Of a stretch of 64,000 bases of DNA, positions 366 to 64,000 are shown piece by piece. The notes beneath the pieces are model-generated. The model ran no database searches. It had not been told where the DNA came from and saw only the letters and a program-made list of their open reading frames with translations. Positions within the stretch are counted from its first letter, which is position 1; every line of letters begins with the position of its first letter. The position numbers and the translations under genes are program-made. Origin of the DNA: Candidatus Omnitrophota bacterium (GTDB taxonomy: Bacteria > Omnitrophota > Gorgyraeia > JABMRG01 > JAFGKX01); the NCBI GenBank assembly GCA_043797125.1, contig JAZDPX010000033.1:98527-162526 (forward strand). The letters are read 5' to 3'.

Positions 366-785
366 TTAAAACTGCTTCTCGTAACGCTCTATGTTTTCTT
401 GCGGAGTTTCTTTGGCAATCCAATATGTATTTGCCTTTTTGTTCCAATCTATATCCAAAAAACCTTTGCCGAATAATTTAGCTATCAAGCTTATGAGTGT
501 TAAAACCAAATAAAATAATGCGGTAAGAACCAGAAGCGTGGTAACCGCCATGATAACTTCTAAGGTTTTCTTGAGAACAATTTGAAGCGGCTTCAACGCA
601 ACCGGAGCAAAAATACCCAGAATAAAAATAACAGCGCTCACCGCGTAAAACCATGGATAGACATTCACGCGCCCCTTAAATAAATGCAGCGTGCCTATAA
701 TAGCCAATGCCGCTCCAAAAATAACTCCGAATTTTCGCAGTTCTTTCTTATTTGTTTCCATATTTCTCTCTATGCTATCGACCAT
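366..785 (-). CDS. Small polytopic membrane protein (3-4 TM helices) immediately downstream of a carbamoyltransferase; first codons lie in the heptamer array, so the true start is probably the internal Met (~761)
   Basis: 139-aa ORF with hydrophobic segments (GVIFGAALAIIGTLHLF, YAVSAVIFILGIFAPVAL, AVTTLLVLTALFYLVLTLISLIA). The small-membrane-protein-next-to-carbamoyltransferase arrangement recalls the saxitoxin sxtJ/sxtI pairing (analogy only). Confidence 0.45.
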   Translation of the reverse strand: MVDSIERNMETNKKELRKFGVIFGAALAIIGTLHLFKGRVNVYPWFYAVSAVIFILGIFAPVALKPLQIVLKKTLEVIMAVTTLLVLTALFYLVLTLISLIAKLFGKGFLDIDWNKKANTYWIAKETPQENIERYEKQF

Positions 786-813
786 CGACTATAGACCATA
801 GACTATAGACTAT
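776..813. repeat. Heptamer tandem array (gaccatc/gactata family), intergenic
   Basis: atcgaccatcgactatagaccatagactatagactatc. Confidence 0.9.
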
Positions 814-41432: not shown

Positions 41433-42407
41433 CGCTCTTTGCTTCAACGGCTTCCACCACCGGCTGTTATTCTTATACCAGCCTATTGTCAAATCCAGGC
41501 CCTCATTAAACGAATACTTCGGCCTCCAGCCCAACTTTTTAATTTTACCGGAATCAAGCGCGTAACGCCTGTCATGCCCAGGCCTATCGGTTACAAATTT
41601 TATATAGCTATCCCTAAGGCGCAGTTTCTTTAAAAGGGCCCCTGCCATATCAATATTGCGTATTTGGGTCCTGGTGCCTATATTGTAAATTTCGCCAATT
41701 TTCCCATTTTTTAAAATACATTCTATGCCGCGGCAGTTATCCTCAACAAATAGCCAGTCGCGTATATTTTTGCCGTCGCCGTACAAAGGCAGTTTTTTGC
41801 CCCCAAGAAGATTGGTGATAAACAACGGCATCACCTTTTCCGGATACTGATAGGGGCCGAAGTTGTTTGAGCTTCTTGCTATTACAACCGGTAATCCAAA
41901 TGTATGATAATAACTAAGGCATAATAAATCAGCTGCTGCTTTTGACGCTGCATACGGAGAATTAGGCAAAAGCGCGTCTGTCTCTTTTGAAAAACCTGAT
42001 TTTATGTCTCCGTACACTTCATCTGTCGAGATCTGCATGAATTTTTTTATTTTGTATTTTCTGGCTGCCTCAAGAAGAACCCTTGCGCCTTCGATATTTG
42101 TTTTTATAAAAGCCCCGGCGTCTTTAATCGAGCGGTCCACATGCGTCTCTGCCGCGAAATTAATTATGGTCGATGGTCGATGGCCAATGGTCGATAGTAA
42201 ATTATTCACTAATTTTGAATCGCAAATATCGCCTTTTACGAATTTATAGCGTTTATCACTTTTGGTATCTCTTAAATTGTTTAGGTTGCCAGCATAAGTG
42301 AGCTTATCAAGATTTATGATTTTAATATCCCTATATTTTTTAAGCATGTATCGAATGAAATTGGACCCGATAAACCCGCATCCTCCGGTTACTAATATAT
42401 TTTTCAT
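41415..42407 (-). CDS. rfbB: dTDP-glucose 4,6-dehydratase (RfbB/RmlB) with an in-frame heptamer-array insertion
   Basis: 'ILVTGGCGFIGSNFIRYML...FAAETHVDRSI...YAASKAAADLL'; array ggtcgatggtcgatggccaatggtcgat at 42168-42195 encodes 'STIGHRPSTI'. Confidence 0.9.
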   Translation of the reverse strand: MKNILVTGGCGFIGSNFIRYMLKKYRDIKIINLDKLTYAGNLNNLRDTKSDKRYKFVKGDICDSKLVNNLLSTIGHRPSTIINFAAETHVDRSIKDAGAFIKTNIEGARVLLEAARKYKIKKFMQISTDEVYGDIKSGFSKETDALLPNSPYAASKAAADLLCLSYYHTFGLPVVIARSSNNFGPYQYPEKVMPLFITNLLGGKKLPLYGDGKNIRDWLFVEDNCRGIECILKNGKIGEIYNIGTRTQIRNIDMAGALLKKLRLRDSYIKFVTDRPGHDRRYALDSGKIKKLGWRPKYSFNEGLDLTIGWYKNNSRWWKPLKQRARIIEW

Positions 42408-42417
42408 CTTTTTACCA

Positions 42418-42445
42418 CAGACTATAGACTATTGACTATAGACCC
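42418..42445. repeat. Heptamer tandem array (gactata family), intergenic between rfbB and degT
   Basis: cagactatagactattgactatagaccc. Confidence 0.9.
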
Positions 42446-44314: not shown

Positions 44315-45340
44315 TTATTTTGAAACTTGCTTTTTAAACCTTTTAGTATCCGCAAGTTTCTTTATTTTTTGAAATAGAATAAATTTACGCGGTAAATAAA
44401 CGTCTGTCGATCTTAGGCCTCCATAAATAAAATTCCCTAATTTCACTGTATCCTCAAATCCATATCTTAATTCAAAACAGTTTGGCGTTCGTTTATAGAT
44501 AGTCCCCCGCCGTGTAGGCATTATATTGTGCATCCATTTTAGCACTTCATAGTTAGAGCTGGTAACCATAGATTTATAAATATCATTGCTGACATGATAT
44601 GCAAAGCAACCATCTCCATCAAAATATCCTCTTACAAAATCATGATAAATATTTTTTGGCATATTTAATGGATATAACCTTAAAGGCTTCTTTGGGATTA
44701 CCCCCAATTTTAATAAATCATTGTTTATCTCGTTAGAGCTGAATTCCAATCTAAAATATTTGCCATTTTCGTAACTTCTTATAGGTTTATTGCTTTGAAA
44801 AACTAAATTTATCTTTTCTAACAAAACTTTGTCCTTTGTGGCAAACATCAATTTTCCTTCCCTGCTTACACAACCATCAGCACAAATGTACCCAAGTAAA
44901 TATGCGGTTTTGCTATTAAGGGATTTAAATATATCTCTGCTATAGTTATAAATACGATTATAGCTGCGGCCTTTCATCTTTCTGCTGTGCTCCCTTTTGC
45001 CCCTTTCTGCCTGCATGTAAAATTTACCTTTTTGTGCCGCTATAATAGCCGCCTGCTTTCTGCTTCTCAATTTTATATTCCGTTGCCTTAAGCATCTTTT
45101 GATTCTATTAACGCTATAACCTGACGTTCTTGAAATTTCAGATAATGAAAATTTCCTTTTCACATACAAGTAGACTATTTTATTAATATTGCTGCTTTTT
45201 CTTCTGTTGTGGCCAATAATATACTTTTTACTTAGTCCAACATCTTTATTGCAACCACATGCGCAACTATGGACGCTATAACTCTTTTCCTGTTTTTTAA
45301 TTTTTCCTCCAGTCATAATCAATATCGTTATCAAACGCAT
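44315..45340 (-). mobile_element. Free-standing double-motif LAGLIDADG homing-endonuclease gene between rfbC and rfbA
   Basis: Two dodecapeptide motifs 'AYLLGYICADGCVS' and 'FVRGYFDGDGCFAY'; Cys cluster 'HSCACGCNKD' and basic HTH-like N-terminal region; overlaps the rfbC start by 44 nt. Confidence 0.75.
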
Positions 45341-45759: not shown

Positions 45760-45794
45760 CAACTATCGACCATCGACTATTGACTATCAACTAT
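45760..45794. repeat. Heptamer tandem array, intergenic rfbC/ugd
   Basis: caactatcgaccatcgactattgactatcaactat. Confidence 0.9.
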
Positions 45795-55077: not shown

Positions 55078-55710
55078 CTATAACCCTAATAGCTCCTTTA
55101 TCTTGTCCGCTGCGGAGGAGGCGTTATCCGCATATCCATCCGCGTCTATTTCATCCGCGTACTTTTGAGTAACCGGCGCCCCGCCTATAACTGTCTTTAT
55201 CTTTCCTTTTAAGCCTTTGTTTTTGAGTAAATCTACCGTAGCTTTCATAGACGGCATGGATGTGGTAAGAAGCGAAGACATAGCTATAACCTTTGCCTGA
55301 TTTTTAACTGCTTCATCGATAAAACGTTTTGGGTCAACATCTATGCCAAGGTCAATGACCATAAAGCCTGCGCCTTTCAGCATCATGGAAACTAAATTTT
55401 TGCCGATATCGTGCAAATCGCCTCTTACTGTGCCGACGATTACCTTACCTTTAGGTTTTACGCCTGCTTTAGCCAAAAGCGGCTCCAGGATATCAAGCCC
55501 TGCGTGCATTGCCTTTGCGGAGATGAGAACTTCGGGCACGTATATTTCATTGGCCTTGAACTTCTCGCCTACTACGGACATGCCTGCGATAAGCCCTTTA
55601 TTCAGCACATCTTCTGAAGAAGCTCCTGCAGATATTGCCTTATTTACAAGAGTTGGAACAGCAGAAATATCGCCATTGAGGATGGCGTTTTTGATTGGGT
55701 CGTAATTCAT
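55078..55710 (-). CDS. Cobalamin (corrinoid)-binding protein, MtbC/MtmC-like (B12-binding cap + Rossmann)
   Basis: 'GTVRGDLHDIGKNLV' DxHxxG motif; start placed at 'MNYDPIKNAIL'. Confidence 0.7.
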   Translation of the reverse strand: MNYDPIKNAILNGDISAVPTLVNKAISAGASSEDVLNKGLIAGMSVVGEKFKANEIYVPEVLISAKAMHAGLDILEPLLAKAGVKPKGKVIVGTVRGDLHDIGKNLVSMMLKGAGFMVIDLGIDVDPKRFIDEAVKNQAKVIAMSSLLTTSMPSMKATVDLLKNKGLKGKIKTVIGGAPVTQKYADEIDADGYADNASSAADKIKELLGL

Positions 55711-55809
55711 ATAATAATAGATACATTTAGTATAGGAGGTATAGTAGCATATCGGGGATAAAAGGCAAGGAAATTCTCTCAAATCCTATGTTAATTCTCA
55801 CTGTATCTA

Positions 55810-55964
55810 AAGCCTTTGCATGCCTTGCCTTCGCTTGTCACTCGCTCAGAGAATTTTTCGCCTTCGGCGAAAGGCGCTCTTCGCTCGTTGTGGCAAAAAT
55901 CGCTCACTAATCGCCGGGTTTTCGCGATTTTTGACAGTCGCTTCGGCAAAGCATGCAAAGGCTT
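55810..55964. repeat. GC-enriched element with nested inverted repeats (outer 14-bp perfect IR aagcctttgcatgc / gcatgcaaaggctt)
   Basis: Outer IR at 55810-55823 and 55951-55964; inner hairpins cgccttcggcgaaaggcg and caaaaatcgc...gcgatttttg. Confidence 0.7.
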
Positions 55965-56080
55965 CTTCTGCGCCTGTAAATTACCATAGGGATTCTCGTT
56001 CATGGCGGGAAAATATTTGTTTAACGGTGGGCAACAGCTAAATCTTCCGCTATTGTTTTTTCGGCAATGCCCAAAGGCTT

Positions 56081-56114
56081 ACCATAGACTATCGACTATT
56101 GACTATAGACTATT
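56081..56114. repeat. Heptamer tandem array downstream of the 1007-aa gene
   Basis: accatagactatcgactattgactatagactatt. Confidence 0.9.
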
Positions 56115-59114
56115 TTACGCTGCTGCGTCAACGGCTACGGTTAAATATCTGCCCCATTCCGGTATGTGTGGGGTAATATCAGCGGGGTTTTGGGTTATAT
56201 CTATGACTGTAACTTTACCTATTTTAAGCATGAACATCTGCCTAAGAGTTTGTTCTATCTCTTTAACATCTTTTGCTCTTTCGCTGCCTTTCTGACTTTC
56301 TAACAGAATCTTCATTTCAACTTTAATATTCTTTATCTCCTTTAACCCGTCAACCTCCATATCTCTGGTTGCTCGAATGACACCGGCAGGGCATTTAATA
56401 GTATAACTTTTTTCCGAAACGGTGATTTCTACTGATATCATTCTGTCTTCCCACCCCCTGATTGTATCTGTTAGTTTTGCCGTCATTAAAGAATACAGCG
56501 ACTCCCAATCTTCTGCTGTAAAATTTGCAATTACTTCTATGCCTTCGGGCTCCGATTCTTTGCTAATATCAGATATGCCTTTTATTTCCAGCGCATAGGA
56601 CTTCATGTATATTCTGAAAGCGTTGCGAAGATCTGTTTGAAATTGTTTCATGGATTTAATATCTTTTGCGAAATTTAAGCGGCCTGTTTCATTAAGTAAA
56701 ATTTTAAGTTCATGTTTAAATTTTTTCATGTCGTGCAAAGACAACATGGCATCACAAATTGCGCTATAGCTGTAGTCATCATCATCAATATCGAAAGATA
56801 TCCCACTGTTAAGAATAATTTTCATATCCATCCAATTTGACCATTTTTTGTATATTTCAATAAGGCTCCTTATCAAAACAGGCATTGTAAGCCCATCTGC
56901 CTTAAAATGTACAGTTGCCCCTTTCTCAAGGAACCTTTGCACATCCTGCTCGCCGACTGTCGCCGCCGCTGGCGGGCGAAGGGCGCTGGAGGCGATGGAT
57001 TGCTCTGCGGATTCCTCAAATTTTTTAAAAAGTTTTCTTAACCGGCGTAGAGAAGGGGCGTTTTCGTCATTATTTTTAGCGCCTTCTATTCTTGCATATT
57101 CTAAAGGCTTCACTATATTCCAGACTTTATAAATAGTAAGATCGTTATAGCTTTCACTTTTAAGAAGAGAGAGAATTTCATTTATATATTTTTCATTAAA
57201 CTCCAAGCTAAAAGGCAGGCGCATAATCCTATAAAGTAAATCGAGATTACCTTTTTCTTTAGAAGCAGGGATAATAAAATCTTGCAAGAATATTTTAGCT
57301 TTTTTAGCGCCGAATTTATCCTTTATGTCTGGCAGCTTTTCTAAAATAGCGTTAATTATGTTAACCCTGCATTTTTTATCAGAGCCGCGCTCTTTAAACG
57401 TAAATTGGTTACCTTTCCACATTAGCCTGTGAATCAGCTCATATGCCTCTGTTCTTCTGAGCTGCCTGGTGAGGATTTTAAAACCTTCCAGTTCTTTCCC
57501 AGCCAGTTTTTTCCCAGCTGGTTTTTTCCCAGCCGGTTTTTTCCCAGTGATAGTCTCACGATAAATTAGCTCATTTTTTGAAAGTAATGTTAAAAATTCA
57601 TTAAAATAATCTCTTCTACTTTCAAGTTTTTTTAACTTGCCTATCTCCACAAAAATGGAATCATCAACTATTGTCTCGCCCAAGTATTTGATTTCTACCT
57701 TCTTGCCGTCAATTTTCACCCATTGATACTCATCATCTATAATCGGCACACCCAGATACTTAAAGGCCTCTTTGAGAGTGGAATATCTTTCGACAGAAAC
57801 AACGCCGGCAACACCGTCAAGTTTTAAGCCATTCAACGTAATATGTATATCCACTGTGGGCATATGTTCTCTTAATTCATCAACAGGGCCTTCCTTTATT
57901 AAAAAGCTGTCAAAAATAACCGGTTTTTTGCCTTCCTCGGATTTTCTTATGGCGCGGGCAATATTCACTATAATGTGGCCGAGTATTCGCCTTTTCTTCT
58001 TATTCTCTATCTTATTGATAATATCATCCGTTATGTCTTTCATTATACCGGACAATATATTTTTGATTTCTTCGTCTTTTACCTTGCTAATCGCGACAGG
58101 CAATACAGCCTTAAGCTTATTCTCATTTGCCTGCTTGATTAATACCGGCAAAAATCGCTTGATAAAGATTGAAGGTGTTTTTTTAACTAATTGCAGTATT
58201 TTTTTTCCTAATTCTGTTTTGGATATTTCTATCGGCTCGTTTGGCAGGCTTCTTATGTCTAACCCAGAATCTGATTCAAGCAGCATTTTGCTAATTGAAG
58301 TGCCTCTTATCCACTTTTTAAACCTGCCTGCAGGCATTTTCTCGATTGCAGCCAGCAATATTTCTTTAACGCTGTCGGGAGGAAGTTTATTGATACTACT
58401 AATTGCAATCTTCTTAATTTCAGCAGGGGGGAGTTCATTAATAATATCCGGCAATATTTTTTTTGTCATATCCGCGGGAATATTTTTAAACACGCTGGGA
58501 AATAAGTTTGTTATCATATCGGACGGTATACTTTTGCCAACATCAGAGGCCTTGCCTTGCATAACGTTATCTGCATACTTAAGCAATTCAATGCATTCGA
58601 TGAGGATATATTCAACCTCTTCTTTTTTCGCTAATTTTTGTATTTCAAGAAGAGGCATTAATATGTACGCGACTTCTACAGGCCGCTGGTCTGCTAAAAC
58701 ACGAATGATTCCCAACGCATAATCATGAAAGATTTCCTGCTTATCGTCTTTTAGTATCAATATTATGGATTTCAGGAGTTTGCTTAATTTTTCCGGCGTA
58801 TCAAGTTTAGTGTTTGTAATCTCTTTTAATATATAGACTTTTTCATTAAAAGTATTTACATCTATGATATCTTCAGCGCCACGTGGTTTTTTAGCAAGTG
58901 TTTCAATATAATCGTTTAATTTTGCAGGAGAAATCTGATCTCTTTTCTCATATGGAATTTTCTCAAAATTATATTTGGCATAAAACTCCTGCCAAGTCAT
59001 CGTCTTTTCAAGTTCCATCTCCAGTTGCGTCTTATTCGCCATCGGGCGCAGGCAAAAGGCATTCGGGGGTACCGCTAATATTATCGCTATCGTTATCGCT
59101 GTTATTTTTCTCAT
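56115..59114 (-). CDS. Giant secreted/anchored hypothetical protein (about 1000 aa) with internal 'LPP...IKK' helical repeats and a (PAGKK)n tract; co-oriented 22 nt downstream of the sigma-fusion gene
   Basis: Start moved to Met9 (ATG 59114, AGGAAA SD); N-term 'MRKITAITIAIILAVPPNAFCLRPMA'; 'KKPAGKKPAGKKLAGKELEG' encoded by ttttttcccagcc(a/g)g x4 at 57493-57548. Confidence 0.5.
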   Translation of the reverse strand: MRKITAITIAIILAVPPNAFCLRPMANKTQLEMELEKTMTWQEFYAKYNFEKIPYEKRDQISPAKLNDYIETLAKKPRGAEDIIDVNTFNEKVYILKEITNTKLDTPEKLSKLLKSIILILKDDKQEIFHDYALGIIRVLADQRPVEVAYILMPLLEIQKLAKKEEVEYILIECIELLKYADNVMQGKASDVGKSIPSDMITNLFPSVFKNIPADMTKKILPDIINELPPAEIKKIAISSINKLPPDSVKEILLAAIEKMPAGRFKKWIRGTSISKMLLESDSGLDIRSLPNEPIEISKTELGKKILQLVKKTPSIFIKRFLPVLIKQANENKLKAVLPVAISKVKDEEIKNILSGIMKDITDDIINKIENKKKRRILGHIIVNIARAIRKSEEGKKPVIFDSFLIKEGPVDELREHMPTVDIHITLNGLKLDGVAGVVSVERYSTLKEAFKYLGVPIIDDEYQWVKIDGKKVEIKYLGETIVDDSIFVEIGKLKKLESRRDYFNEFLTLLSKNELIYRETITGKKPAGKKPAGKKLAGKELEGFKILTRQLRRTEAYELIHRLMWKGNQFTFKERGSDKKCRVNIINAILEKLPDIKDKFGAKKAKIFLQDFIIPASKEKGNLDLLYRIMRLPFSLEFNEKYINEILSLLKSESYNDLTIYKVWNIVKPLEYARIEGAKNNDENAPSLRRLRKLFKKFEESAEQSIASSALRPPAAATVGEQDVQRFLEKGATVHFKADGLTMPVLIRSLIEIYKKWSNWMDMKIILNSGISFDIDDDDYSYSAICDAMLSLHDMKKFKHELKILLNETGRLNFAKDIKSMKQFQTDLRNAFRIYMKSYALEIKGISDISKESEPEGIEVIANFTAEDWESLYSLMTAKLTDTIRGWEDRMISVEITVSEKSYTIKCPAGVIRATRDMEVDGLKEIKNIKVEMKILLESQKGSERAKDVKEIEQTLRQMFMLKIGKVTVIDITQNPADITPHIPEWGRYLTVAVDAAA

Positions 59115-59124
59115 ATTTTCCTGC

Positions 59125-59160
59125 CGACTATAGACCATCGACTATCGACCATAGACCACT
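59125..59160. repeat. Heptamer tandem array between the two giant genes
   Basis: cgactatagaccatcgactatcgaccatagaccact. Confidence 0.9.
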
Positions 59161-62100
59161 CTACGCCGCCTGCGCTATCGCGGCGGCTTTCTTGTTGCCG
59201 TTTACAAGGTCATATACATTTATAACATAGCTATTTTTGTTTTTGCCGTTGCTTTTACCGTTATATGCGCCTACAAGTTCCTGTATAAACACGCATAACT
59301 CACTTTCAATATCAACGTTTTTAACAAACACCTCAAAGTCATCTTCACTTAAGGCTGTCTTTTTTAGTTCTTCTGCCAGAAGTTCTTCCATTGTATTTTC
59401 ACCTAAGCGAATGGTTTCCCTTGTAACATCGTAATCCTCGCCAATCTCTTGTAAGGTTTCGGTCTCGCCTACTCCAAGCATTGGCAGGATTCTTTTTATA
59501 AAGGTTGTCACCATTCTGTTAAATTTATGCACATTATATTCTCTCCACTTTTTGAATAATTTTTCTGCAACTATTCCTATGGCTTCAAATATTTTATCTT
59601 GAATTAGGGCGAGGTCTTCTATTTTATCATCCGCAATAGTGCTCTCAATTGTGTAGCCTTCATCTTCATTGCCTAAAGGCGTGCTCAGTAAAACGGTTGA
59701 GTATTTCATATAATTTATTACATTAGTTACTTTTGTTTCACTCATATCAATCGCGCTGGCTATTTCCGGAATAGTCAGTTTCCCGGATATAGGGTTAATA
59801 TCTTTCACCTGGCATCTTCTTTTAAATTCCTTAATCTGATTATATATATATGAGGATATTTTTGTATCGTTAAGATAGAATCCTATCTGGCTATCAATAA
59901 TTTGTTTAATTATCTTAACAGCAAATGTGGAAAATCTATAACCTTTTTGCGGTTTAAACTCTTTGGCTGCTTTCATAAGGCCGTCGTGAGCAGGGCCCAA
60001 TAATTCTTCCAAAGGTAAGTTATATGACCAAGCATAGCTTTTTGCAATGCTATATTCAAGCCTTAGGTTTGACTCAACAAGCTTATTTCTTGCTGCGGTA
60101 TCGCCGATCTGCGCAAGCACTCCATATTTAATTTCACCCAAGGGGGTTAACATAGAAAAATCGTACATCCTAGCAAGGTGCTGGGCAACAGGATCTGGTA
60201 TTTCTTTTGATTGTTTTTTTGGCAAGCTTTTGCCATTAGGAATAAACGCGTGCTTTTCGGGTATGGATTCAAAGAATTTTTTACCCTCTTTTCTAAGTTT
60301 ATCCTGATACCTGCCTTCATAGCTTACAAATTTGCAGACGGCTTTAGCCAAAGTTAGCACTTTATCTTCTTCTTCTTTATATTCTTCTGGTAATTCGTTA
60401 ATGATACATAAAATAGCTGTATTTAAATATATTTGGCTTTCATGCTCACTATTAAAATCCAGAATATCTATAAGCTGTTCAATTAACGCCGTCGTCTGTT
60501 CAGGAGACAATTGCATTAATTGCCTAAAATTAGTTAATACCTTATTTTTATCTTCATCAGCTTTTTTGCCTCTATATATTGCATCCGCCAAAAGCACTAA
60601 ATAGAAATCGACTCCGCGATCTTTGAATGGCAAAGTTTTATTTTCTAAAAACTGCAATCTATCTTTTTTGAGCCTATCTGCCGTATTTAGAAGTGTCGTT
60701 ACTGTAATTTTTTCCTGCTTATGCGCGGGGCGAGATCTTTTCTTGTGTCTTTGCGCTGTATGTTGCAAAATATCAATTGCTGGCTCCAGAATGCCTCTCT
60801 CCAAAAGTTCTTGCGCAAACTTAACGGTAAACTGGCTTATGGGTATTAATTTTTTAAAATAGGCATTTCTTATTAAAGTAATTTTCGGCCTTGACTTTTT
60901 ATTTTTTGAATATTTCCCGGCATCATAAACATAAACTTTCCAGCCGTGTTTAACATCTTCTACGGGAACAAATGCCGGTTTTTTGCCTGCTAATGATTTT
61001 AGGCCTCGCACTTCCAGCCATCTATTTCTATATGCCAGTTTTATAATGCCGTTTTTGGGAACAACATAAGGATGATAATATTCCCTGGGGGCCACTGGGC
61101 CACCATAAATATCTTTATTGCATAAAACATAATCTAAAAATGCTATTTTTGAAAAATCAATAGGCATATGCATTGGAAAATTATCGAGGTAATAATGCCT
61201 TGCAACCACGACTTTCTCTTTCCCTGTTTTATACCATATCTCTTCATAAGGCCCATAGGATGGGTCGTTTTCAACTGTTCCTAAGGCTTTTTGCGGCATC
61301 TTTTTGTCTTTGAATATTCCCTTGGCAATAGGGTACAAAGCAAAATCAAAACTATCTTTTCTTCTCATATCCGACATAGTCTTGGAAGCCTCATACCGGA
61401 CGGTGCCGTCTTTTTCTGTTACGCGCCTTACAGTTAATTCTAATATTCTATCCTTCACTGGTTTAATATCGTACCTGCCGTTGTAGCAATCGATGGCATC
61501 TAAAAAAGCCAGGTCAACCTGCCTGCATTTTGTTAGTTTGATGCCAGGGCCGCAATGTCTGATTTTTCTTAACATGCTTTTATAAGTTGCTAAGGGTTTC
61601 GGTGAAGTGGATTTTTCATATTCTGATTCAAGATAAATATTAATAACCTGCCTTTGGTTTATATCTTTCTCGACTTTTATGATAGCGGGTTCATTAAGCA
61701 GCGCGCCTTCCCCCATGCGGTCTTTCTTTATAAAAAATGATATTGCGTCATCGCGCCGGTATTCGTTTATAAAAGGAACGACACAAACGCCGCATCCCTC
61801 TCCGCCGTCTTTAATTGTCGTTTTATAAATTCTACCGCACTCTTGCAACTCTATTCCCTTGTGCGCTTTTAAAATATCGTGTTTTGCAAGATTAATCTGC
61901 ATAGTTTTCGAGCGCAATGTTTTCCATTTATCTTTTCCCTCAATAGGGCTAATATCTTTAAAATGCTTATATGTTACTAATGGCTTGGGATTTTTCTTAG
62001 CATAATAATCGTCTTTAAGATAAATATTTATTACCTGGCCGTGGTTTTTATCGTTCTCAACCACGACAGCCACATCTTTATATAAAAGATTTGCATTTTT

Positions 62101-62748
62101 AAATTTCTTTGGAGGTATATTGAAGGTGGTGGGTGGGTATGGATTATAGCCGTGCCTGTGGCAACTAACCTGTATAATGCCTCCTTTTAATATTTTTGTT
62201 ATATATGGCCTTGCTAATGTTTCTATTTCCCGCAGACCGTAGGTTGCGGCTAAAACATCCATAGACGGCAAATTAACCTGTACGGCTTTTCCCTTTTCAG
62301 CGTAAAATTTATATGTACAAAACGGCTGCTCGATATATTCTTTATTATAATCATCTAAATAATAAAAATTTAGTAACAGGCCATTATTTACCTCATCTGG
62401 CAAGCTGTGGTTTGGATCGTATTCCCCCAAAAAAACTATATTCGCATTCTTTGCTTTTTCGCCTTCTGAAGTAAAGGAAAAATATGCTATCACACCATTG
62501 CTTGTAAGCGTTTTTTGTGCTTGGCTATCAGAGGCAGTAATTAATTTATCACCCTCTCTTAAGCTTAAGCCTGTATTCTTGTAATCCACAATCCTAGCTT
62601 TTACCTCATCGTAAGAGCTTCCGCTTATACACACGAGCGGTGTTTCTTTAGAGTTAACACTTGCTATTGGCCGTAAGGCATAACTCTGGCATGGATTTGC
62701 CGTGGCAGCAATACTAAATACTAATATAATCGAAATTATTCTCTTCAT
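59161..62748 (-). CDS. 1195-aa protein: N-terminal signal-peptide-like leader, about 850 aa of repeat-containing and Cys-containing domains, and a C-terminal complete sigma-70-like domain (regions 1.2, 2, 3, 4) at about 59400-60200
   Basis: 'DPVAQHLARMY...NLRLEYSIAKSY...GLMKAAKEFKPQKGYRFSTFAVKIIKQII...' (region 1.2/2; canonical TWWIRQ is VKIIKQ here), region 3 'LTIPEIASAIDMSETKV...', region 4.2 'TLQEIGEDYDVTRETIRL'; N-term 'MKRIISIILVFSIAATANPCQSYALRPIAS'. Confidence 0.6.
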   Translation of the reverse strand: MKRIISIILVFSIAATANPCQSYALRPIASVNSKETPLVCISGSSYDEVKARIVDYKNTGLSLREGDKLITASDSQAQKTLTSNGVIAYFSFTSEGEKAKNANIVFLGEYDPNHSLPDEVNNGLLLNFYYLDDYNKEYIEQPFCTYKFYAEKGKAVQVNLPSMDVLAATYGLREIETLARPYITKILKGGIIQVSCHRHGYNPYPPTTFNIPPKKFKNANLLYKDVAVVVENDKNHGQVINIYLKDDYYAKKNPKPLVTYKHFKDISPIEGKDKWKTLRSKTMQINLAKHDILKAHKGIELQECGRIYKTTIKDGGEGCGVCVVPFINEYRRDDAISFFIKKDRMGEGALLNEPAIIKVEKDINQRQVINIYLESEYEKSTSPKPLATYKSMLRKIRHCGPGIKLTKCRQVDLAFLDAIDCYNGRYDIKPVKDRILELTVRRVTEKDGTVRYEASKTMSDMRRKDSFDFALYPIAKGIFKDKKMPQKALGTVENDPSYGPYEEIWYKTGKEKVVVARHYYLDNFPMHMPIDFSKIAFLDYVLCNKDIYGGPVAPREYYHPYVVPKNGIIKLAYRNRWLEVRGLKSLAGKKPAFVPVEDVKHGWKVYVYDAGKYSKNKKSRPKITLIRNAYFKKLIPISQFTVKFAQELLERGILEPAIDILQHTAQRHKKRSRPAHKQEKITVTTLLNTADRLKKDRLQFLENKTLPFKDRGVDFYLVLLADAIYRGKKADEDKNKVLTNFRQLMQLSPEQTTALIEQLIDILDFNSEHESQIYLNTAILCIINELPEEYKEEEDKVLTLAKAVCKFVSYEGRYQDKLRKEGKKFFESIPEKHAFIPNGKSLPKKQSKEIPDPVAQHLARMYDFSMLTPLGEIKYGVLAQIGDTAARNKLVESNLRLEYSIAKSYAWSYNLPLEELLGPAHDGLMKAAKEFKPQKGYRFSTFAVKIIKQIIDSQIGFYLNDTKISSYIYNQIKEFKRRCQVKDINPISGKLTIPEIASAIDMSETKVTNVINYMKYSTVLLSTPLGNEDEGYTIESTIADDKIEDLALIQDKIFEAIGIVAEKLFKKWREYNVHKFNRMVTTFIKRILPMLGVGETETLQEIGEDYDVTRETIRLGENTMEELLAEELKKTALSEDDFEVFVKNVDIESELCVFIQELVGAYNGKSNGKNKNSYVINVYDLVNGNKKAAAIAQAA

Positions 62749-62807
62749 TATTTTAATAAAATATTCTAATTTTATCTACTTTATATGATAGTTATAAAAG
62801 GTATTAT

Positions 62808-62836
62808 ATTATAGCAGGTGTTTTCACTTAAGTCAA
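62808..62836 (-). promoter_or_regulatory. Canonical sigma-70 promoter TTGACT-17nt-TATAAT driving the sigma-fusion gene
   Basis: Minus strand: ccTTGACTtaagtgaaaacacctgcTATAATataatacc; -35 at 62831-62836, -10 at 62808-62813, ATG at 62748. Confidence 0.55.
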
Positions 62837-62868
62837 GGGATAATATTAGAGATTGCTGAAATACTGCT

Positions 62869-63047
62869 GTAGGGGTTCGATTTATCGAACCCTTTATAAG
62901 GCGCCATAAATGGCGCCCCTACATTAGATAAACCTGTGCCCCTGAAAAGGGGCATTAAGCCCCTGCATTTTGGCGCAAAATACGAATATCGTAGTTGCCC
63001 AATTTATTGGGCCACCGGGGTTTTAGCCCGATGAATCGGGCAACTAC
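62869..63047 (+). ncRNA. Candidate structured RNA with two consecutive Y-shaped three-way junctions plus a GAAA-capped hairpin; class unknown, strand uncertain
   Basis: Junction 1: gtagg[gggttcg-atttat-cgaaccc]tttataa[ggcgcca-taaa-tggcgcc]cctac. Hairpin tgcccct-gaaa-aggggca. Junction 2: gtagtt[gcccaa-ttta-ttgggc]...[cccga-tgaa-tcggg]c-aactac. Confidence 0.3.
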
Positions 63048-63063
63048 ATGTTCGAGTAAAGCT

Positions 63064-64000
63064 TTAGAATTTATGGAATACTACGCCCGTAAAGGGCTTG
63101 GGGAAAAAATAGGTGGACTTGTGCGGCATGTTATTGCCTGATGTGGCAACTTTTTCAACTTCTTTTATCCTGGTGGGATTCAGGAATATCGCCATTTTAA
63201 ATTCATCGCTTTTTACGACTCTTATGGCCTCTGTCTTTCCCCTGTAATAATATATGTTGCGCATTCCGCGCACTTTCTCTTTTATATTAAGCAGTTGCGG
63301 AAGGATAAAATGGTGCAATATGCTGACATCTAATTTCTTCCAGCTTATGCTGTTATCGGCAGAGCCGATATTTTTAATAATATTTTCATCTTTTAGCAAT
63401 GCGAATACGAAACTATCGTCGTAAAAAAAGCCAAACGCGTGCCTTTTTTGCCTGTCCGCTGTCTCTAATTTTTTAATCAGGTCTTCTTTACTATTTACCA
63501 TGCTTACATAAAAATGCCTTGACAGCTTTTTTAGCATAGAATCTTTAGAATAATTAGCTGGCAGAAACTTGATTGCCCTGTGCGTAGGAAGTATCGCAAG
63601 ACCCTTATCTTTCATGCTTAAAAAATAAACCATAGCGTAGTCGTAAGGCATTTTGCATGTTGTATTTTTTTGTCTTCTGGACAGATGATCCCTTAATGCA
63701 ACGCACGCGTTAAAACGATGATGCCCGTCAGCTATGAATATTTTTTCATTCTGCATAATATTCTGCAGCTTATTTATAATCTCAACATCGGAAATCTTCC
63801 AAAGCTCCTTTTTCACCCCATCCGCGCTAAACTCAACATCAGGCTTTTGTTTTCTCATAACAGATATGAGCATATCTTCAACTTTTGCGGCGTCGTCTTT
63901 AAAAACAGTAAATATGGGGCTTAAATGCGCCTGTGTTGTAAGCATGAGATTAAATCTTTCAACTTTGAACTTTTTAAATATTTTTTCGTGAGGCAGGGCT
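63064..64000 (-). CDS. DUF1015-family protein, N-terminally truncated by the window edge
   Basis: 'SPIFTVFKD...KIFIADGHHRFNACVAL' (the ADGHHR motif typical of DUF1015); the reading frame stays open to position 64000. Confidence 0.75.
   Translation of the reverse strand, partial: ALPHEKIFKKFKVERFNLMLTTQAHLSPIFTVFKDDAAKVEDMLISVMRKQKPDVEFSADGVKKELWKISDVEIINKLQNIMQNEKIFIADGHHRFNACVALRDHLSRRQKNTTCKMPYDYAMVYFLSMKDKGLAILPTHRAIKFLPANYSKDSMLKKLSRHFYVSMVNSKEDLIKKLETADRQKRHAFGFFYDDSFVFALLKDENIIKNIGSADNSISWKKLDVSILHHFILPQLLNIKEKVRGMRNIYYYRGKTEAIRVVKSDEFKMAIFLNPTRIKEVEKVATSGNNMPHKSTYFFPKPFTGVVFHKF

What the first reader, a model, noticed from the sequence alone, without database searches (positions are those of the whole stretch)
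56115..59138. Second giant gene co-transcribed with the sigma-fusion, sharing its unusual N-terminal leader motif
The 1007-aa ORF lies 22 nt downstream of the sigma-fusion, on the same strand and with its own AGGAAA ribosome-binding site. Its N-terminus (MRKITAITIAIILAVPPNAFCLRPMANK) resembles the sigma-fusion leader (..SIAATANPCQSYALRPIASV): both are a hydrophobic segment followed by N-x-x-C...LRP(I/M)A. The body has many helical 'LPP..IKK' repeats and a (PAGKK)n tract. The arrangement of a sigma-like gene followed by a large exported partner is reminiscent of sigma/anti-sigma pairs, but at unprecedented size. The shared motif could be a sorting or processing signal specific to this pair.
Basis: partly seen in the sequence, partly recalled or inferred. 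Interest (0 to 1): 0.55.

Follow-up and report, generated by a model that had tools for sequence, protein, structure and literature searches.

The report
Shared end-tags on clustered Omnitrophota proteins
The gene after the sigma-factor fusion is a real 999-residue orphan protein from an uncultured Omnitrophota bacterium, and the "LRP" leader it shares with its neighbour is a recurring start-tag, paired with a small-residue end-tag, on clusters of otherwise unrelated large proteins, so it looks like a lineage-specific sorting or processing label and not a sign of a sigma/anti-sigma pair.

Summary
ORF B is a real gene, but it is 999 aa (start 59114, not 59138). It lies 46 nt (not 22) downstream of the sigma-fusion ORF A. 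No terminator-like site lies in the gap. The source is a Candidatus Omnitrophota MAG.

The pairwise leader similarity is weak: an unrelated signal peptide scores as high. The core L-R-P-x-A is nevertheless real.
- It is invariant in ORF A's homologue.
- It is present in both ORF B homologues.
- It is present (once as LRA) in two unrelated proteins next to one of those homologues.
- It is absent from the ordinary signal-peptide proteins checked in the same loci.
- It also sits at internal module boundaries, including ORF B residue 712.

Carriers usually end in a small-residue tail (ATQA, ATSA, AQAA, AAA). Fused homologues keep tail and LRP together as one linker. N-x-x-C is not conserved.

ORF B matches no curated family, and confident structure models could not be obtained. 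The A–B pairing is not conserved elsewhere, so the anti-sigma reading is unsupported.

My best reading (about 0.4) is a lineage-specific pair of end-tags that directs Sec-exported modular proteins to shared sorting or maturation. The main rival is a membrane-tethering pro-sequence, as in pro-sigma-K.

The parts
56115..59114 (-). ORF B coding sequence, 999 aa plus stop. The start is MRKITAIT...
   Evidence: ORF list. An identical 999-aa NCBI protein, V2A72_06430, comes from a Candidatus Omnitrophota MAG. The N-terminus is conserved with P0005.
59052..59114 (-). ORF B leader, aa 1-21: MRK, hydrophobic ITAITIAIILAV, then PPNAFC
   Evidence: n-region charge +2 and a 12-residue h-region with mean hydropathy 2.88. 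This is Sec-signal-like by eye; no dedicated predictor was available.
59037..59051 (-). L-R-P-M-A motif, aa 22-26
   Evidence: P0005 has the same CLRPMA.
58569..58991 (-). Conserved helical sub-domain of the B1 module, aa 42-182
   Evidence: BLAST to P0005 (E 5e-12) and to P0007. Alignment A1.
57966..58568 (-). Insertion specific to ORF B, aa 183-383. It holds the 8/16-residue LPPxxIKK helical repeats (aa 196-268, nt 58311-58529).
   Evidence: The region is gapped in both homologues. Periodicity peaks at lags 8 and 16. The Pfam MgtE_N match is sub-threshold, E 0.016.
57630..57872 (-). Beta-rich stretch, aa ~415-495, possibly a beta-grasp (ubiquitin-like) fold
   Evidence: Strand-strand-helix-strand pattern in low-confidence models. 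Only weak hits: Ub-Mut7C E 0.11 and scattered ubiquitin-like Foldseek matches, none at E <= 1e-3. Not established.
57492..57536 (-). PAGKK-PAGKK-LAGKE linker, aa 527-541
   Evidence: Absent from the homologues.
57015..57491 (-). Conserved helical C-terminal part of the B1 module, aa 542-700
   Evidence: BLAST to P0005 and P0007. Alignments A1 and A4.
56967..56984 (-). Internal junction motif A-L-R-P-P-A, aa 711-716, preceded by SIASS
   Evidence: It parallels the internal AISES-ALRPEA junction of P0003.
56118..56966 (-). B2 module, aa 717-999: an orphan region ending in the tail VAVDAAA (nt 56118-56138)
   Evidence: No homologue covers this region and there is no PDB match. Tail.
59126..59156 (-). 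Tandem heptamer array (RGTCNAT) x4-5 that fills the A-B spacer. The RBS AGGAAA lies at 59117-59122.
56080..56110 (-). Second heptamer array, directly after the ORF B stop codon
59161..62748 (-). ORF A, the 1195-aa sigma-fusion. Leader aa 1-24 (62677-62748); LRPIA aa 25-29 (62662-62676); sigma-70 regions aa ~844-1136 (59341-60219); tail AIAQAA (59164-59181).
   Evidence: Pfam Sigma70_r2/r3/r4. RpoS and RpoD profiles match almost full length. A24, L25, R26, P27 and A29 are invariant against both modules of P0003.
62808..62836 (-). Promoter-like site TTGACT-17-TATAAT with an extended TG, upstream of ORF A
   Evidence: Matches 11 of 12 consensus positions, tied for the best score in the region.

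Best explanation
ORF B is a lineage-restricted Omnitrophota protein that is probably co-transcribed with the sigma-fusion ORF A. Both belong to a small class of large, modular and otherwise unrelated proteins that sit next to each other in the genome and carry the same two end-tags.

The tags:
- At the N-terminus, a Sec-type signal-like leader (basic start, 11-14 hydrophobic residues) is followed after 6-20 further residues by [A/T/C]-L-R-P-x-A.
- At the C-terminus, the protein usually ends in small uncharged residues (ATQA, ATSA, AQAA, AAA).

How I think it works (inferred): the leader takes the protein across the inner membrane. The LRPxA motif, which then lies at or near the new N-terminus, and the tail are read by one shared downstream machinery for sorting or proteolytic maturation. 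Where modules are fused into one polypeptide, tail plus LRP persists as the inter-module linker.

The body of ORF B has no recognisable catalytic motif. It comprises a helical region, ARM-like 16-residue repeats, a possible beta-grasp, more helices and an orphan second module. It is most likely a non-enzymatic scaffold or adaptor. It is not an anti-sigma factor in any recognisable sense.

Shown: the gene, the motifs, and their recurrence and specificity. Inferred: export, and the reading of the tags by a common machinery.
For: Recurrence of the motif:
- LRPxA is invariant in ORF A and in both modules of its homologue P0003.
- It is present in ORF B's homologues P0005 (CLRPMAK) and P0007 (TLRPAAS).
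- In locus L005, the two large genes upstream of P0007 are unrelated to ORF A and ORF B. They carry TPR repeats and NagB/PIG-L domains. They have the same leader with DTLRATSA and DTLRPIATA, and all three L005 genes end in ATQA*.
- In L004, the gene just upstream of P0005 ends in FATSA*, 5 nt before the P0005 start codon.

Specificity:
- A scan for a hydrophobic segment followed by LR[PA] finds only these genes at N-termini.
- AT[QS]A* occurs 4 times in six-frame translations of all loci, each time at the end of one of these genes.
- The signal-peptide proteins checked in the same loci (LptD and three small L001 proteins) lack the motif.
- Between the non-homologous carriers, only the leaders align.

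Protein-level selection: every instance uses different codons, so this is not copied DNA.

Linker form: fused versions keep tail and motif as one linker, TTAAISES-ALRPEAS in P0003 and EQSIASS-ALRPPAA in ORF B.

Leader geometry fits signal peptides: n-region charge +1 to +4 and h-regions of 11-14 residues.

Context from papers: 94% of long Omnitrophota proteins carry a signal peptide or TM helices, including ones with regulatory or metabolic domains (10.64898/2026.06.07.730766). Cleavage of giant Omnitrophota proteins into several products has been proposed, with no cleavage points known (10.1101/2023.11.21.568195).
Against: - Every identifiable domain in carriers is of a cytoplasmic type: sigma-70, a CheR-like methyltransferase, GlcN6P deaminase/PIG-L, TPR. 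This fits export poorly unless the proteins act inside another cell.
- From general knowledge of E. coli Sec export, an Arg close after the cleavage site is unfavourable.
- No signal-peptide predictor could be run.
- The sample is small: about 8 proteins from 5 assemblies. Part of the recurrence is simple inheritance within the A and B families.
- The tail is missing in P0005 and is less specific in the window (AQAA, AAA).
- ORF A relatives L001 and L002 lack a clean LRP.
- No candidate protease or secretion gene lies next to any cluster.
Confidence: 0.4

Rival explanations
1. Membrane-tethering pro-sequence. The hydrophobic leader does not export the protein. [quoted passage not shown] This is how Bacillus pro-sigma-K (cut by SpoIVFB) and pro-sigma-E (cut by SpoIIGA) are activated. 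ORF B would be released in step with the sigma-fusion.
For: - It resolves the paradox that all recognisable domains are cytoplasmic types.
- The h-regions of 11-14 residues are too short to span a membrane.
- The motif also occurs internally without any hydrophobic segment, which fits a protease site better than an export signal.
- Pro-sigma factors give a precedent (established knowledge).
Against: - The leaders have the full n-h-c layout of ordinary signal peptides and look like the ordinary exported proteins of the same loci.
- The tag is also on non-sigma proteins.
- No S2P-type or SpoIIGA-type protease gene is nearby.
- The distance from the hydrophobic segment to LRP varies from 6 to 20 residues.
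Confidence: 0.2
2. Inter-module linker or docking remnant. Tail plus LRPxA is a structural linker (or a pair of docking ends) inherited as modules were shuffled, split and fused. It has no sorting or cleavage role, and the signal peptides were acquired separately.
For: - The fused forms carry tail and LRP contiguously: the P0003 junction and ORF B residue 712.
- ORF A's tail AAAIAQAA joined to ORF B's LRPMA closely resembles those internal linkers.
- The alignments of ORF A to P0003 start exactly at ALRP.
Against: - Unrelated proteins (L005 genes 1 and 2) share the termini but nothing else, which module inheritance does not explain.
- The motif keeps a fixed place just after a signal-like leader in seven proteins.
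Confidence: 0.15
3. Sigma/anti-sigma (or sigma-regulator) pair. ORF B binds and controls the sigma domain of ORF A.
For: The two genes are adjacent, on the same strand and probably co-transcribed. The helical repeats could be a protein-binding surface.
Against: - No anti-sigma domain or any other family hit.
- B-family genes lie beside non-sigma genes in L005, and no sigma similarity was detected in the upstream gene fragment in L004.
- The A-family gene in L001 has no B-like neighbour.
- No fused A-B protein was found.
Confidence: 0.08
4. Chance. The two leaders are ordinary signal peptides and the LRP match is a coincidence.
For: An unrelated signal peptide scores as high as ORF B against ORF A. 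Profile-profile comparison is not significant.
Against: The motif and the matching tails recur in homologues and in unrelated neighbours in other genomes, with a chance expectation of about 3e-4 per protein.
Confidence: 0.03

Closest known systems
Sec (SPase I) signal peptides followed by a sorting motif in the mature N-terminus, such as the Bacteroidota lipoprotein export signal or the lipoprotein +2 rule
   Same: A basic n-region, a 11-14 residue h-region and small residues before a likely cut site. A short conserved motif lies within a few residues of the mature N-terminus and is restricted to a subset of exported proteins.
   Different: The LRPxA sequence corresponds to no sorting motif I know of. 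The carriers are not lipoproteins (no lipobox). The motif also occurs internally at module junctions and is paired with a C-terminal tail.
Sigma/anti-sigma gene pairs
   Same: A sigma-domain gene is followed directly by a probably co-transcribed partner gene.
   Different: There is no anti-sigma domain. The partner is 999 aa and carries a signal-like leader. The pairing is not conserved in relatives. The sigma protein itself carries the same leader.
Pro-sigma-K and pro-sigma-E of Bacillus (N-terminal pro-sequences removed by SpoIVFB and SpoIIGA)
   Same: A sigma-70 family protein with a hydrophobic N-terminal extension that could tether it to the membrane and be cleaved off.
   Different: About 840 residues of non-sigma domains lie between the leader and the sigma part. 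The leader looks like a classical signal peptide. The same tag is on non-sigma proteins. No cognate protease was identified.
Long and giant Omnitrophota proteins (West-Roberts et al. 2023 preprint; 2026 complete-genome preprint)
   Same: Same phylum. Modular proteins with signal peptides that nonetheless carry regulatory or metabolic domains. Post-translational cleavage into several products has been proposed.
   Different: ORF A and ORF B are about 1 kaa, not 10 kaa or more. No C39 or S8 peptidase domains. No adjacent type II secretion-like locus in the window. In the text searches made here, neither paper mentions a sigma factor or a junction motif.
C-terminal small-residue degrons read by Tsp/Prc or ClpXP (ssrA-like ...LAA, model tail WVAAA)
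   Same: The tails AQAA, DAAA, ATQA and ATSA end in small uncharged residues, which is the known preference of tail-specific protease. This comparison is from memory and was not tested.
   Different: There is no evidence of degradation. ATQA and ATSA are not ssrA-like. No S41 protease gene is seen nearby.
MgtE_N / FliG-type armadillo-like helical repeats
   Same: Repeated helices of the form 'LP-x-acidic-x-x-basic-basic-I...', about 16 residues each.
   Different: The Pfam match is below threshold (16.2 bits against a cut-off of 25.9). The repeats are an insertion found only in ORF B, not in its homologues.

Membership tests
Anti-sigma factor | A recognisable anti-sigma domain (ASD / zf-HC2, RsbW-like kinase, FlgM and similar) | tested here: not met
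   No such hit in Pfam at E <= 0.1, NCBIfam, PADLOC or PHROGs.
Anti-sigma factor | Conserved genomic pairing with its sigma gene | tested here: not met
   P0007 is flanked by non-sigma genes. No sigma similarity was detected in the 59-aa C-terminal fragment of the gene upstream of P0005. The L001 sigma-fusion has no B-like neighbour. The sample is small.
Anti-sigma factor | Physical binding to sigma regions 2 and 4 | not testable with these tools
   No multimer prediction was available. The monomer models were of low confidence.
Sec / SPase I signal peptide | Basic n-region, a hydrophobic h-region of 10-15 residues, and small residues at -3 and -1 | tested here: inconclusive
   The n-region charge is +2 and the h-region is 12 residues. 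A-F-C precedes LRP in ORF B and S-Y-A precedes it in ORF A. Only heuristic rules were applied, with no SignalP or DeepTMHMM.
Lipoprotein (SPase II) signal | Lipobox [LVI][ASTVI][GAS]C | tested here: not met
   NAFC in ORF B, ANPC in ORF A and HHLC in P0005 do not fit. Other carriers have no Cys there.
Tat signal | Twin-arginine S/T-R-R-x-F-L-K before the h-region | tested here: not met
   The N-termini are MRK and MKR, with no RR motif.
MgtE_N / FliG-like repeat domain | A Pfam match above the gathering score | tested here: not met
   PF03448 scores 16.2 bits against a cut-off of 25.9, E 0.016.
Beta-grasp (ubiquitin-like) fold | A confident structural match | tested here: inconclusive
   pLDDT is about 50-64 in that stretch. 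No Foldseek PDB hit at E <= 1e-3, with several weak ubiquitin-like hits. Pfam Ub-Mut7C gives E 0.11.
MZA anti-phage system | MzaA together with MzaB-E partner genes | tested here: not met
   ORF A matches MzaA only through its sigma domain. ORF B has no PADLOC hit.
Omnitrophota giant proteins | Length of 10,000 aa or more, often with C39/S8 peptidase domains and an adjacent T2SS-like locus | tested here: not met
   ORF B is 999 aa and ORF A is 1195 aa. No peptidase domains. The neighbours are housekeeping genes.

The most novel reading that the evidence does not exclude
LRPxA after a signal peptide, together with the small-residue C-terminal tail, is a previously undescribed address code. It would mark a set of Omnitrophota effector proteins built from cytoplasmic-type domains, including a complete sigma-70-like factor, for export and delivery into a host or prey cell. 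There the sigma-fusion would redirect the victim's RNA polymerase and ORF B would act as its co-delivered adaptor. The same motif would mark the cleavage or junction points of the phylum's much larger polyproteins.
Probability: 0.1. Interest if true: 0.9.

Novelty: new variant of a known kind. Interest (0 to 1): 0.5.

Why it matters
Omnitrophota are uncultured, mostly ultra-small bacteria with host-dependent or predatory traits (PMC10066038). Their long proteins often combine signal peptides with domains that should only work in a cytoplasm, and nobody knows where these proteins go or where they are cut.

A short, conserved tag pair that marks module ends and recurs on clustered, unrelated proteins gives a concrete handle on that question. 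It can be searched for across the phylum. It can be used to predict cargo sets and candidate cleavage points. It can be tested with simple reporter fusions.

If the tagged sigma-fusion is really exported, it would, to my knowledge, be the first secreted bacterial sigma factor.

For annotation, the practical result is smaller. ORF B is a 999-aa orphan, not an anti-sigma factor, and its start codon is 59114.

Tried and rejected
Searches that found little or nothing:
- The word-indexed homology search with ORF B, and with the B-family profile, found only ORF B itself.
- The exhaustive HMMER search gave only two real relatives, P0005 and P0007. P0006 is a low-complexity artefact.
- Scans with the B-family profile of genome, metagenome and viral contig collections found nothing.
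- The A-family profile found three Omnitrophota loci in genomes and nothing in metagenomes or viral contigs.
- Look-ups of the encoding contigs of P0001, P0002 and P0003 found nothing, so the window could not be extended.
- PDB sequence searches were negative for the B profile, the B2 module and the N-terminal half of ORF A.
- Rfam found nothing in 55-64 kb. No tmRNA was found to compare tag peptides with the tails.

Readings rejected:
- Lipoprotein or Tat signal: the motifs do not fit.
- MZA defence system: the only hit is through the sigma domain.
- Recent DNA duplication of the leader: the codons differ.
- N-x-x-C as part of the motif: it is not conserved.
- Similarity between the L004 upstream fragment and L005 gene 1: weak and out of register.
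Full report
**1. What is at the coordinates**

The minus strand carries two long adjacent ORFs: 59161-62748 (ORF A, 1195 aa) and 56115-59138.

The 1007-aa reading of the second ORF starts at an ATG that lies inside an intergenic repeat and has no ribosome-binding site. That start gives MRKITAITIAIILAVPPNAFCLRPMANK and a 999-aa protein. It is identical to the NCBI protein 'hypothetical protein V2A72_06430 [Candidatus Omnitrophota bacterium]' on a 174-kb contig. It also matches the N-terminus of the homologue P0005 (MKKLLTITIAIILAMP...CLRPMAKG).

The gap to ORF A is therefore 46 nt. It holds no terminator-like site. The promoter-like match upstream of ORF A, at 62836-62808, is tied for the best score in the region (TTGACT-17-TATAAT, 11 of 12, with an extended TG). 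A two-gene operon is plausible but not shown.

Both genes are more AT-rich (GC 0.37) than their neighbours to the left (0.41-0.45).

The surrounding genes are housekeeping: DUF1015 | ORF A | ORF B | a B12-binding protein | AccD | a MalK-like ATPase | two GGDEF proteins | a ROK kinase | LptD. Beyond them lies a large polysaccharide-biosynthesis cluster.

**2. ORF A**

Residues ~844-1136 match RpoS and RpoD profiles over almost their full length (E 5e-28), Pfam sigma-70 regions 2, 3 and 4, and the phage sigma family phrog_351. The MzaA hits come through the sigma domain only.

The first ~840 residues hold four or five copies of a beta-rich repeat (core VVENDKNHGQVINIYL). This part has no Pfam hit and its first 627 residues have no PDB match.

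**3. Homologues are very rare**

*ORF B.* It has only two real relatives among 1.8 billion representative proteins:
- P0005, 626 aa.
- P0007, 1627 aa, where the homologous part is residues 814-1373.

The shared 'B1 module' covers ORF B residues 42-182 and 383-644. Residues 183-383, which contain the LPP..IKK repeats, are an insertion found only in ORF B. The PAGKK tract is also unique to it. Residues 717-999 ('B2') have no relative at all.

*ORF A.* It has one long relative, P0003 (2015 aa, partial), which consists of two complete ORF A-like modules in tandem, each with its own sigma domain. There are also three Omnitrophota genome loci, L001-L003.

**4. The leader**

Taken as a pair, the two N-termini are not convincingly similar:
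- Only 5 of 5000 shuffles reach the observed score, but an unrelated signal peptide from L001 scores the same against ORF A.
- Profile-profile comparison of the two families is not significant.

The N-x-x-C element is not conserved in relatives. What is conserved is L-R-P-x-A.

| Protein | Motif | Position after the hydrophobic segment, or internal | C-terminal tail |
|---|---|---|---|
| ORF A | YALRPIAS | 7 residues | AIAQAA |
| ORF B | FCLRPMAN | 6 residues | VDAAA |
| ORF B, internal | SSALRPPAA | residue 712 | – |
| P0003 | IALRPIAG | 19 residues | unknown (partial) |
| P0003, internal | ESALRPEAS | start of second module | – |
| P0005 | LCLRPMAK | 17 residues | none (GLWVR) |
| P0007 | DTLRPAAS | 13 residues | LATQA |
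| L005 gene 1 | DTLRATSA | 20 residues | FATQA |
| L005 gene 2 | DTLRPIAT | 16 residues | LATQA |
| L004 upstream gene | unknown (partial) | – | FATSA |
| L001 sigma-fusion | none at N-terminus; AALPEAS internal | – | none |

(Sources.)

A24, L25, R26, P27 and A29 of ORF A are invariant against both P0003 modules, and the BLAST alignments begin exactly there.

The decisive observation comes from the neighbourhood of P0007 in locus L005. The two large genes directly upstream are unrelated to ORF A and ORF B. One is a TPR protein. The other combines a glucosamine-6-phosphate deaminase-like domain, a PIG-L domain and TPR repeats. Both have the same kind of leader followed by the motif. Between these non-homologous proteins, only the leaders align.

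Specificity checks:
- A scan for 'hydrophobic segment then LR[PA]' finds, at N-termini, only ORF A and ORF B in the window, only the three clustered genes in L005, and P0005 in L004.
- In six-frame translation, [ACT]LRP.A occurs 4 times in the window, three of them in ORFs A and B.
- Composition predicts about 3.4e-4 per protein.
- The signal-peptide proteins checked in the same loci (LptD and three small L001 proteins) lack the motif.
- Each instance uses different codons, so selection acts on the protein and this is not copied DNA.

**5. A matching C-terminal tail**

All three L005 proteins end in ATQA*. The gene just upstream of P0005 in L004 ends in FATSA*, 5 nt before the P0005 start codon. 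ORF A ends in AIAQAA* and ORF B in VAVDAAA*.

AT[QS]A* occurs four times in six-frame translations of all loci held, each time at the end of one of these genes. The tails in the window are less specific.

P0005 has the leader but no tail. The L001 sigma-fusion has neither a clean LRP nor a tail.

In the fused forms, tail and motif are contiguous: TTAAISES-ALRPEAS in P0003 and EQSIASS-ALRPPAA in ORF B. ORF A's tail joined to ORF B's LRPMA resembles these linkers (...AAAIAQAA|LRPMA). The two tags therefore look like the two halves of one junction element.

**6. The body of ORF B**

- No hit in NCBIfam, PADLOC or PHROGs, and no Pfam hit above threshold.
- The repeats at aa 196-268 have an 8/16-residue period. 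They give a sub-threshold MgtE_N match.
- Structure prediction with the three available sequences failed: pLDDT 39.8 for the full length and 47.4 for the conserved core.
- The secondary-structure pattern around aa 415-495, together with weak Ub-Mut7C and ubiquitin-like Foldseek hits, hints at a beta-grasp domain. Nothing reaches significance.
- The columns invariant in the family show no obvious catalytic motif.

**7. Is it a sigma/anti-sigma pair?**

No anti-sigma domain is detectable. B-family genes sit after non-sigma genes in L005, and no sigma similarity was detected in the upstream gene fragment in L004. The only A-family gene with readable flanks (L001) has no B-like neighbour.

In all three clusters seen, the B1-module gene comes after the other tagged gene or genes. 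It could therefore be a common component with variable partners. With three cases, and with the downstream flank unreadable in L004, this is only a lead.

**8. How it most likely works**

*Established:* there is a class of clustered, unrelated, modular proteins with a shared N-terminal tag and, usually, a shared C-terminal tag.

*Inferred:* the leader has the layout of a Sec signal peptide, with an n-region charge of +1 to +4 and an h-region of 11-14 residues, which is too short for a membrane anchor. LRPxA then lies at or within about 14 residues of the mature N-terminus, where sorting motifs of other systems sit. My best reading (about 0.4) is that the two tags direct exported proteins to one shared sorting or maturation step.

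This fits reports that most long Omnitrophota proteins carry signal peptides or TM helices even when their domains are regulatory or metabolic (10.64898/2026.06.07.730766). It also fits the proposal that they are cleaved into several products at unknown sites (10.1101/2023.11.21.568195).

*Main difficulty:* every recognisable domain is of a cytoplasmic type (sigma-70, CheR-like, NagB/PIG-L, TPR). This leads to two alternatives:
- The proteins act in another cell's cytoplasm, which would fit the host-dependent lifestyle inferred for the phylum (PMC10066038). This is the novel reading, at about 0.1.
- The leader is a membrane-tethering pro-sequence removed by a motif-specific protease, as in pro-sigma-K and pro-sigma-E. 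This is the main rival, at about 0.2.

A purely structural linker (0.15), an anti-sigma role (0.08) and chance (0.03) follow.

**9. Novelty and verdict**

ORF B is an orphan protein of unknown fold. The tag pair corresponds to no sorting or processing signal I know of, but it belongs to a familiar kind of feature, the terminal address tag. I rate it a new variant of a known kind.

Interest is moderate (0.5). It rests, however, on about eight proteins from five assemblies, with no localisation data and no confident structure.

Noticed in passing
window 780-810(-), 42169-42192(+), 42420-42443(-), 45761-45791(-), 56080-56110(-), 59126-59156(-): Tandem arrays of 4-5 heptamers (RGTCNAT) occur at six sites, against 0.01 expected by chance. 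Five lie on the coding strand in the short spacers after a stop codon. In four of these the next gene's ribosome-binding site follows directly, including the A-B spacer. The fifth follows ORF B's stop codon, with no gene close behind. They are absent from the related loci L001-L005. No Rfam family was found for the two arrays within 55-64 kb. They may be an intercistronic RNA element or a protein-binding site.
   Followed up: partly
window 62868-63047: A series of short GC-stem hairpins with AT-rich loops (for example GGGTTCGAT..ATCGAACCC, GGCGCCAT..ATGGCGCC, GTTGCCCAAT..ATTGGGC) lies between the DUF1015 gene and the ORF A promoter. Several of them are related to one another.
   Followed up: partly
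window 55810-55964: An inverted repeat with 20-nt arms (95% complementary, 115 nt apart) encloses an inner 13-nt hairpin. It lies in the 330-nt gap between ORF B and the B12-binding gene. It has no Rfam match, so it is not a recognisable cobalamin riboswitch.
   Followed up: partly
P0003 (homologue of ORF A; not in the window): One 2015-aa (partial) Omnitrophota protein contains two complete sigma-fusion modules in tandem. That puts two sigma-70 domains in a single polypeptide, joined by an ...AISES-ALRPEAS... linker.
   Followed up: partly
L005 9065-13948 (P0007) and L005 2622-5075: A second short motif, [KF]-x-S-S-A-G, recurs four times in P0007 (aa 56, 574, 818, 1603) and once in the neighbouring gene. 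In P0007 it sits at apparent module boundaries; the B1-like module starts right after the third copy. It is absent from ORF A and ORF B.
   Followed up: partly
window 59161-62748 (ORF A aa ~100-620): Four or five copies of a beta-rich repeat with the core (V/I)VENDKNHGQVINIYL...P(L/V)xTYK. There is no Pfam or PDB match. It is conserved in all ORF A relatives and was the best search pattern for them.
   Followed up: partly
L005 9007-9064: A near-perfect palindrome of about 55 nt (TTAATTCGGTGACACACACCTAATTAA | TTTAATTAGGTGTGTGTCACCGAATTAA) fills the spacer between two tagged genes. A consensus promoter (TTGACA...TATAAT) lies between the first two. In that genome the tagged genes may therefore not form one transcript.
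   Followed up: no
window 44315-45340(-): An ORF with a LAGLIDADG-like domain (E 5e-10) sits inside the polysaccharide-biosynthesis cluster, next to one of the heptamer arrays.
   Followed up: no
window 56115-63945: ORF A, ORF B and the DUF1015 gene have GC 0.37-0.38, against 0.41-0.45 for the fifteen or so genes to their left. This may reflect Lys/Ile/Asn-rich composition or a different origin.
   Followed up: no
window 55078-55782(-): The mechanical TTG start of the B12-binding gene adds 24 residues that look non-native (MREFPCLLSPICYY...). The internal ATG (MNYDPIKNA...) is the more likely start.
   Followed up: no
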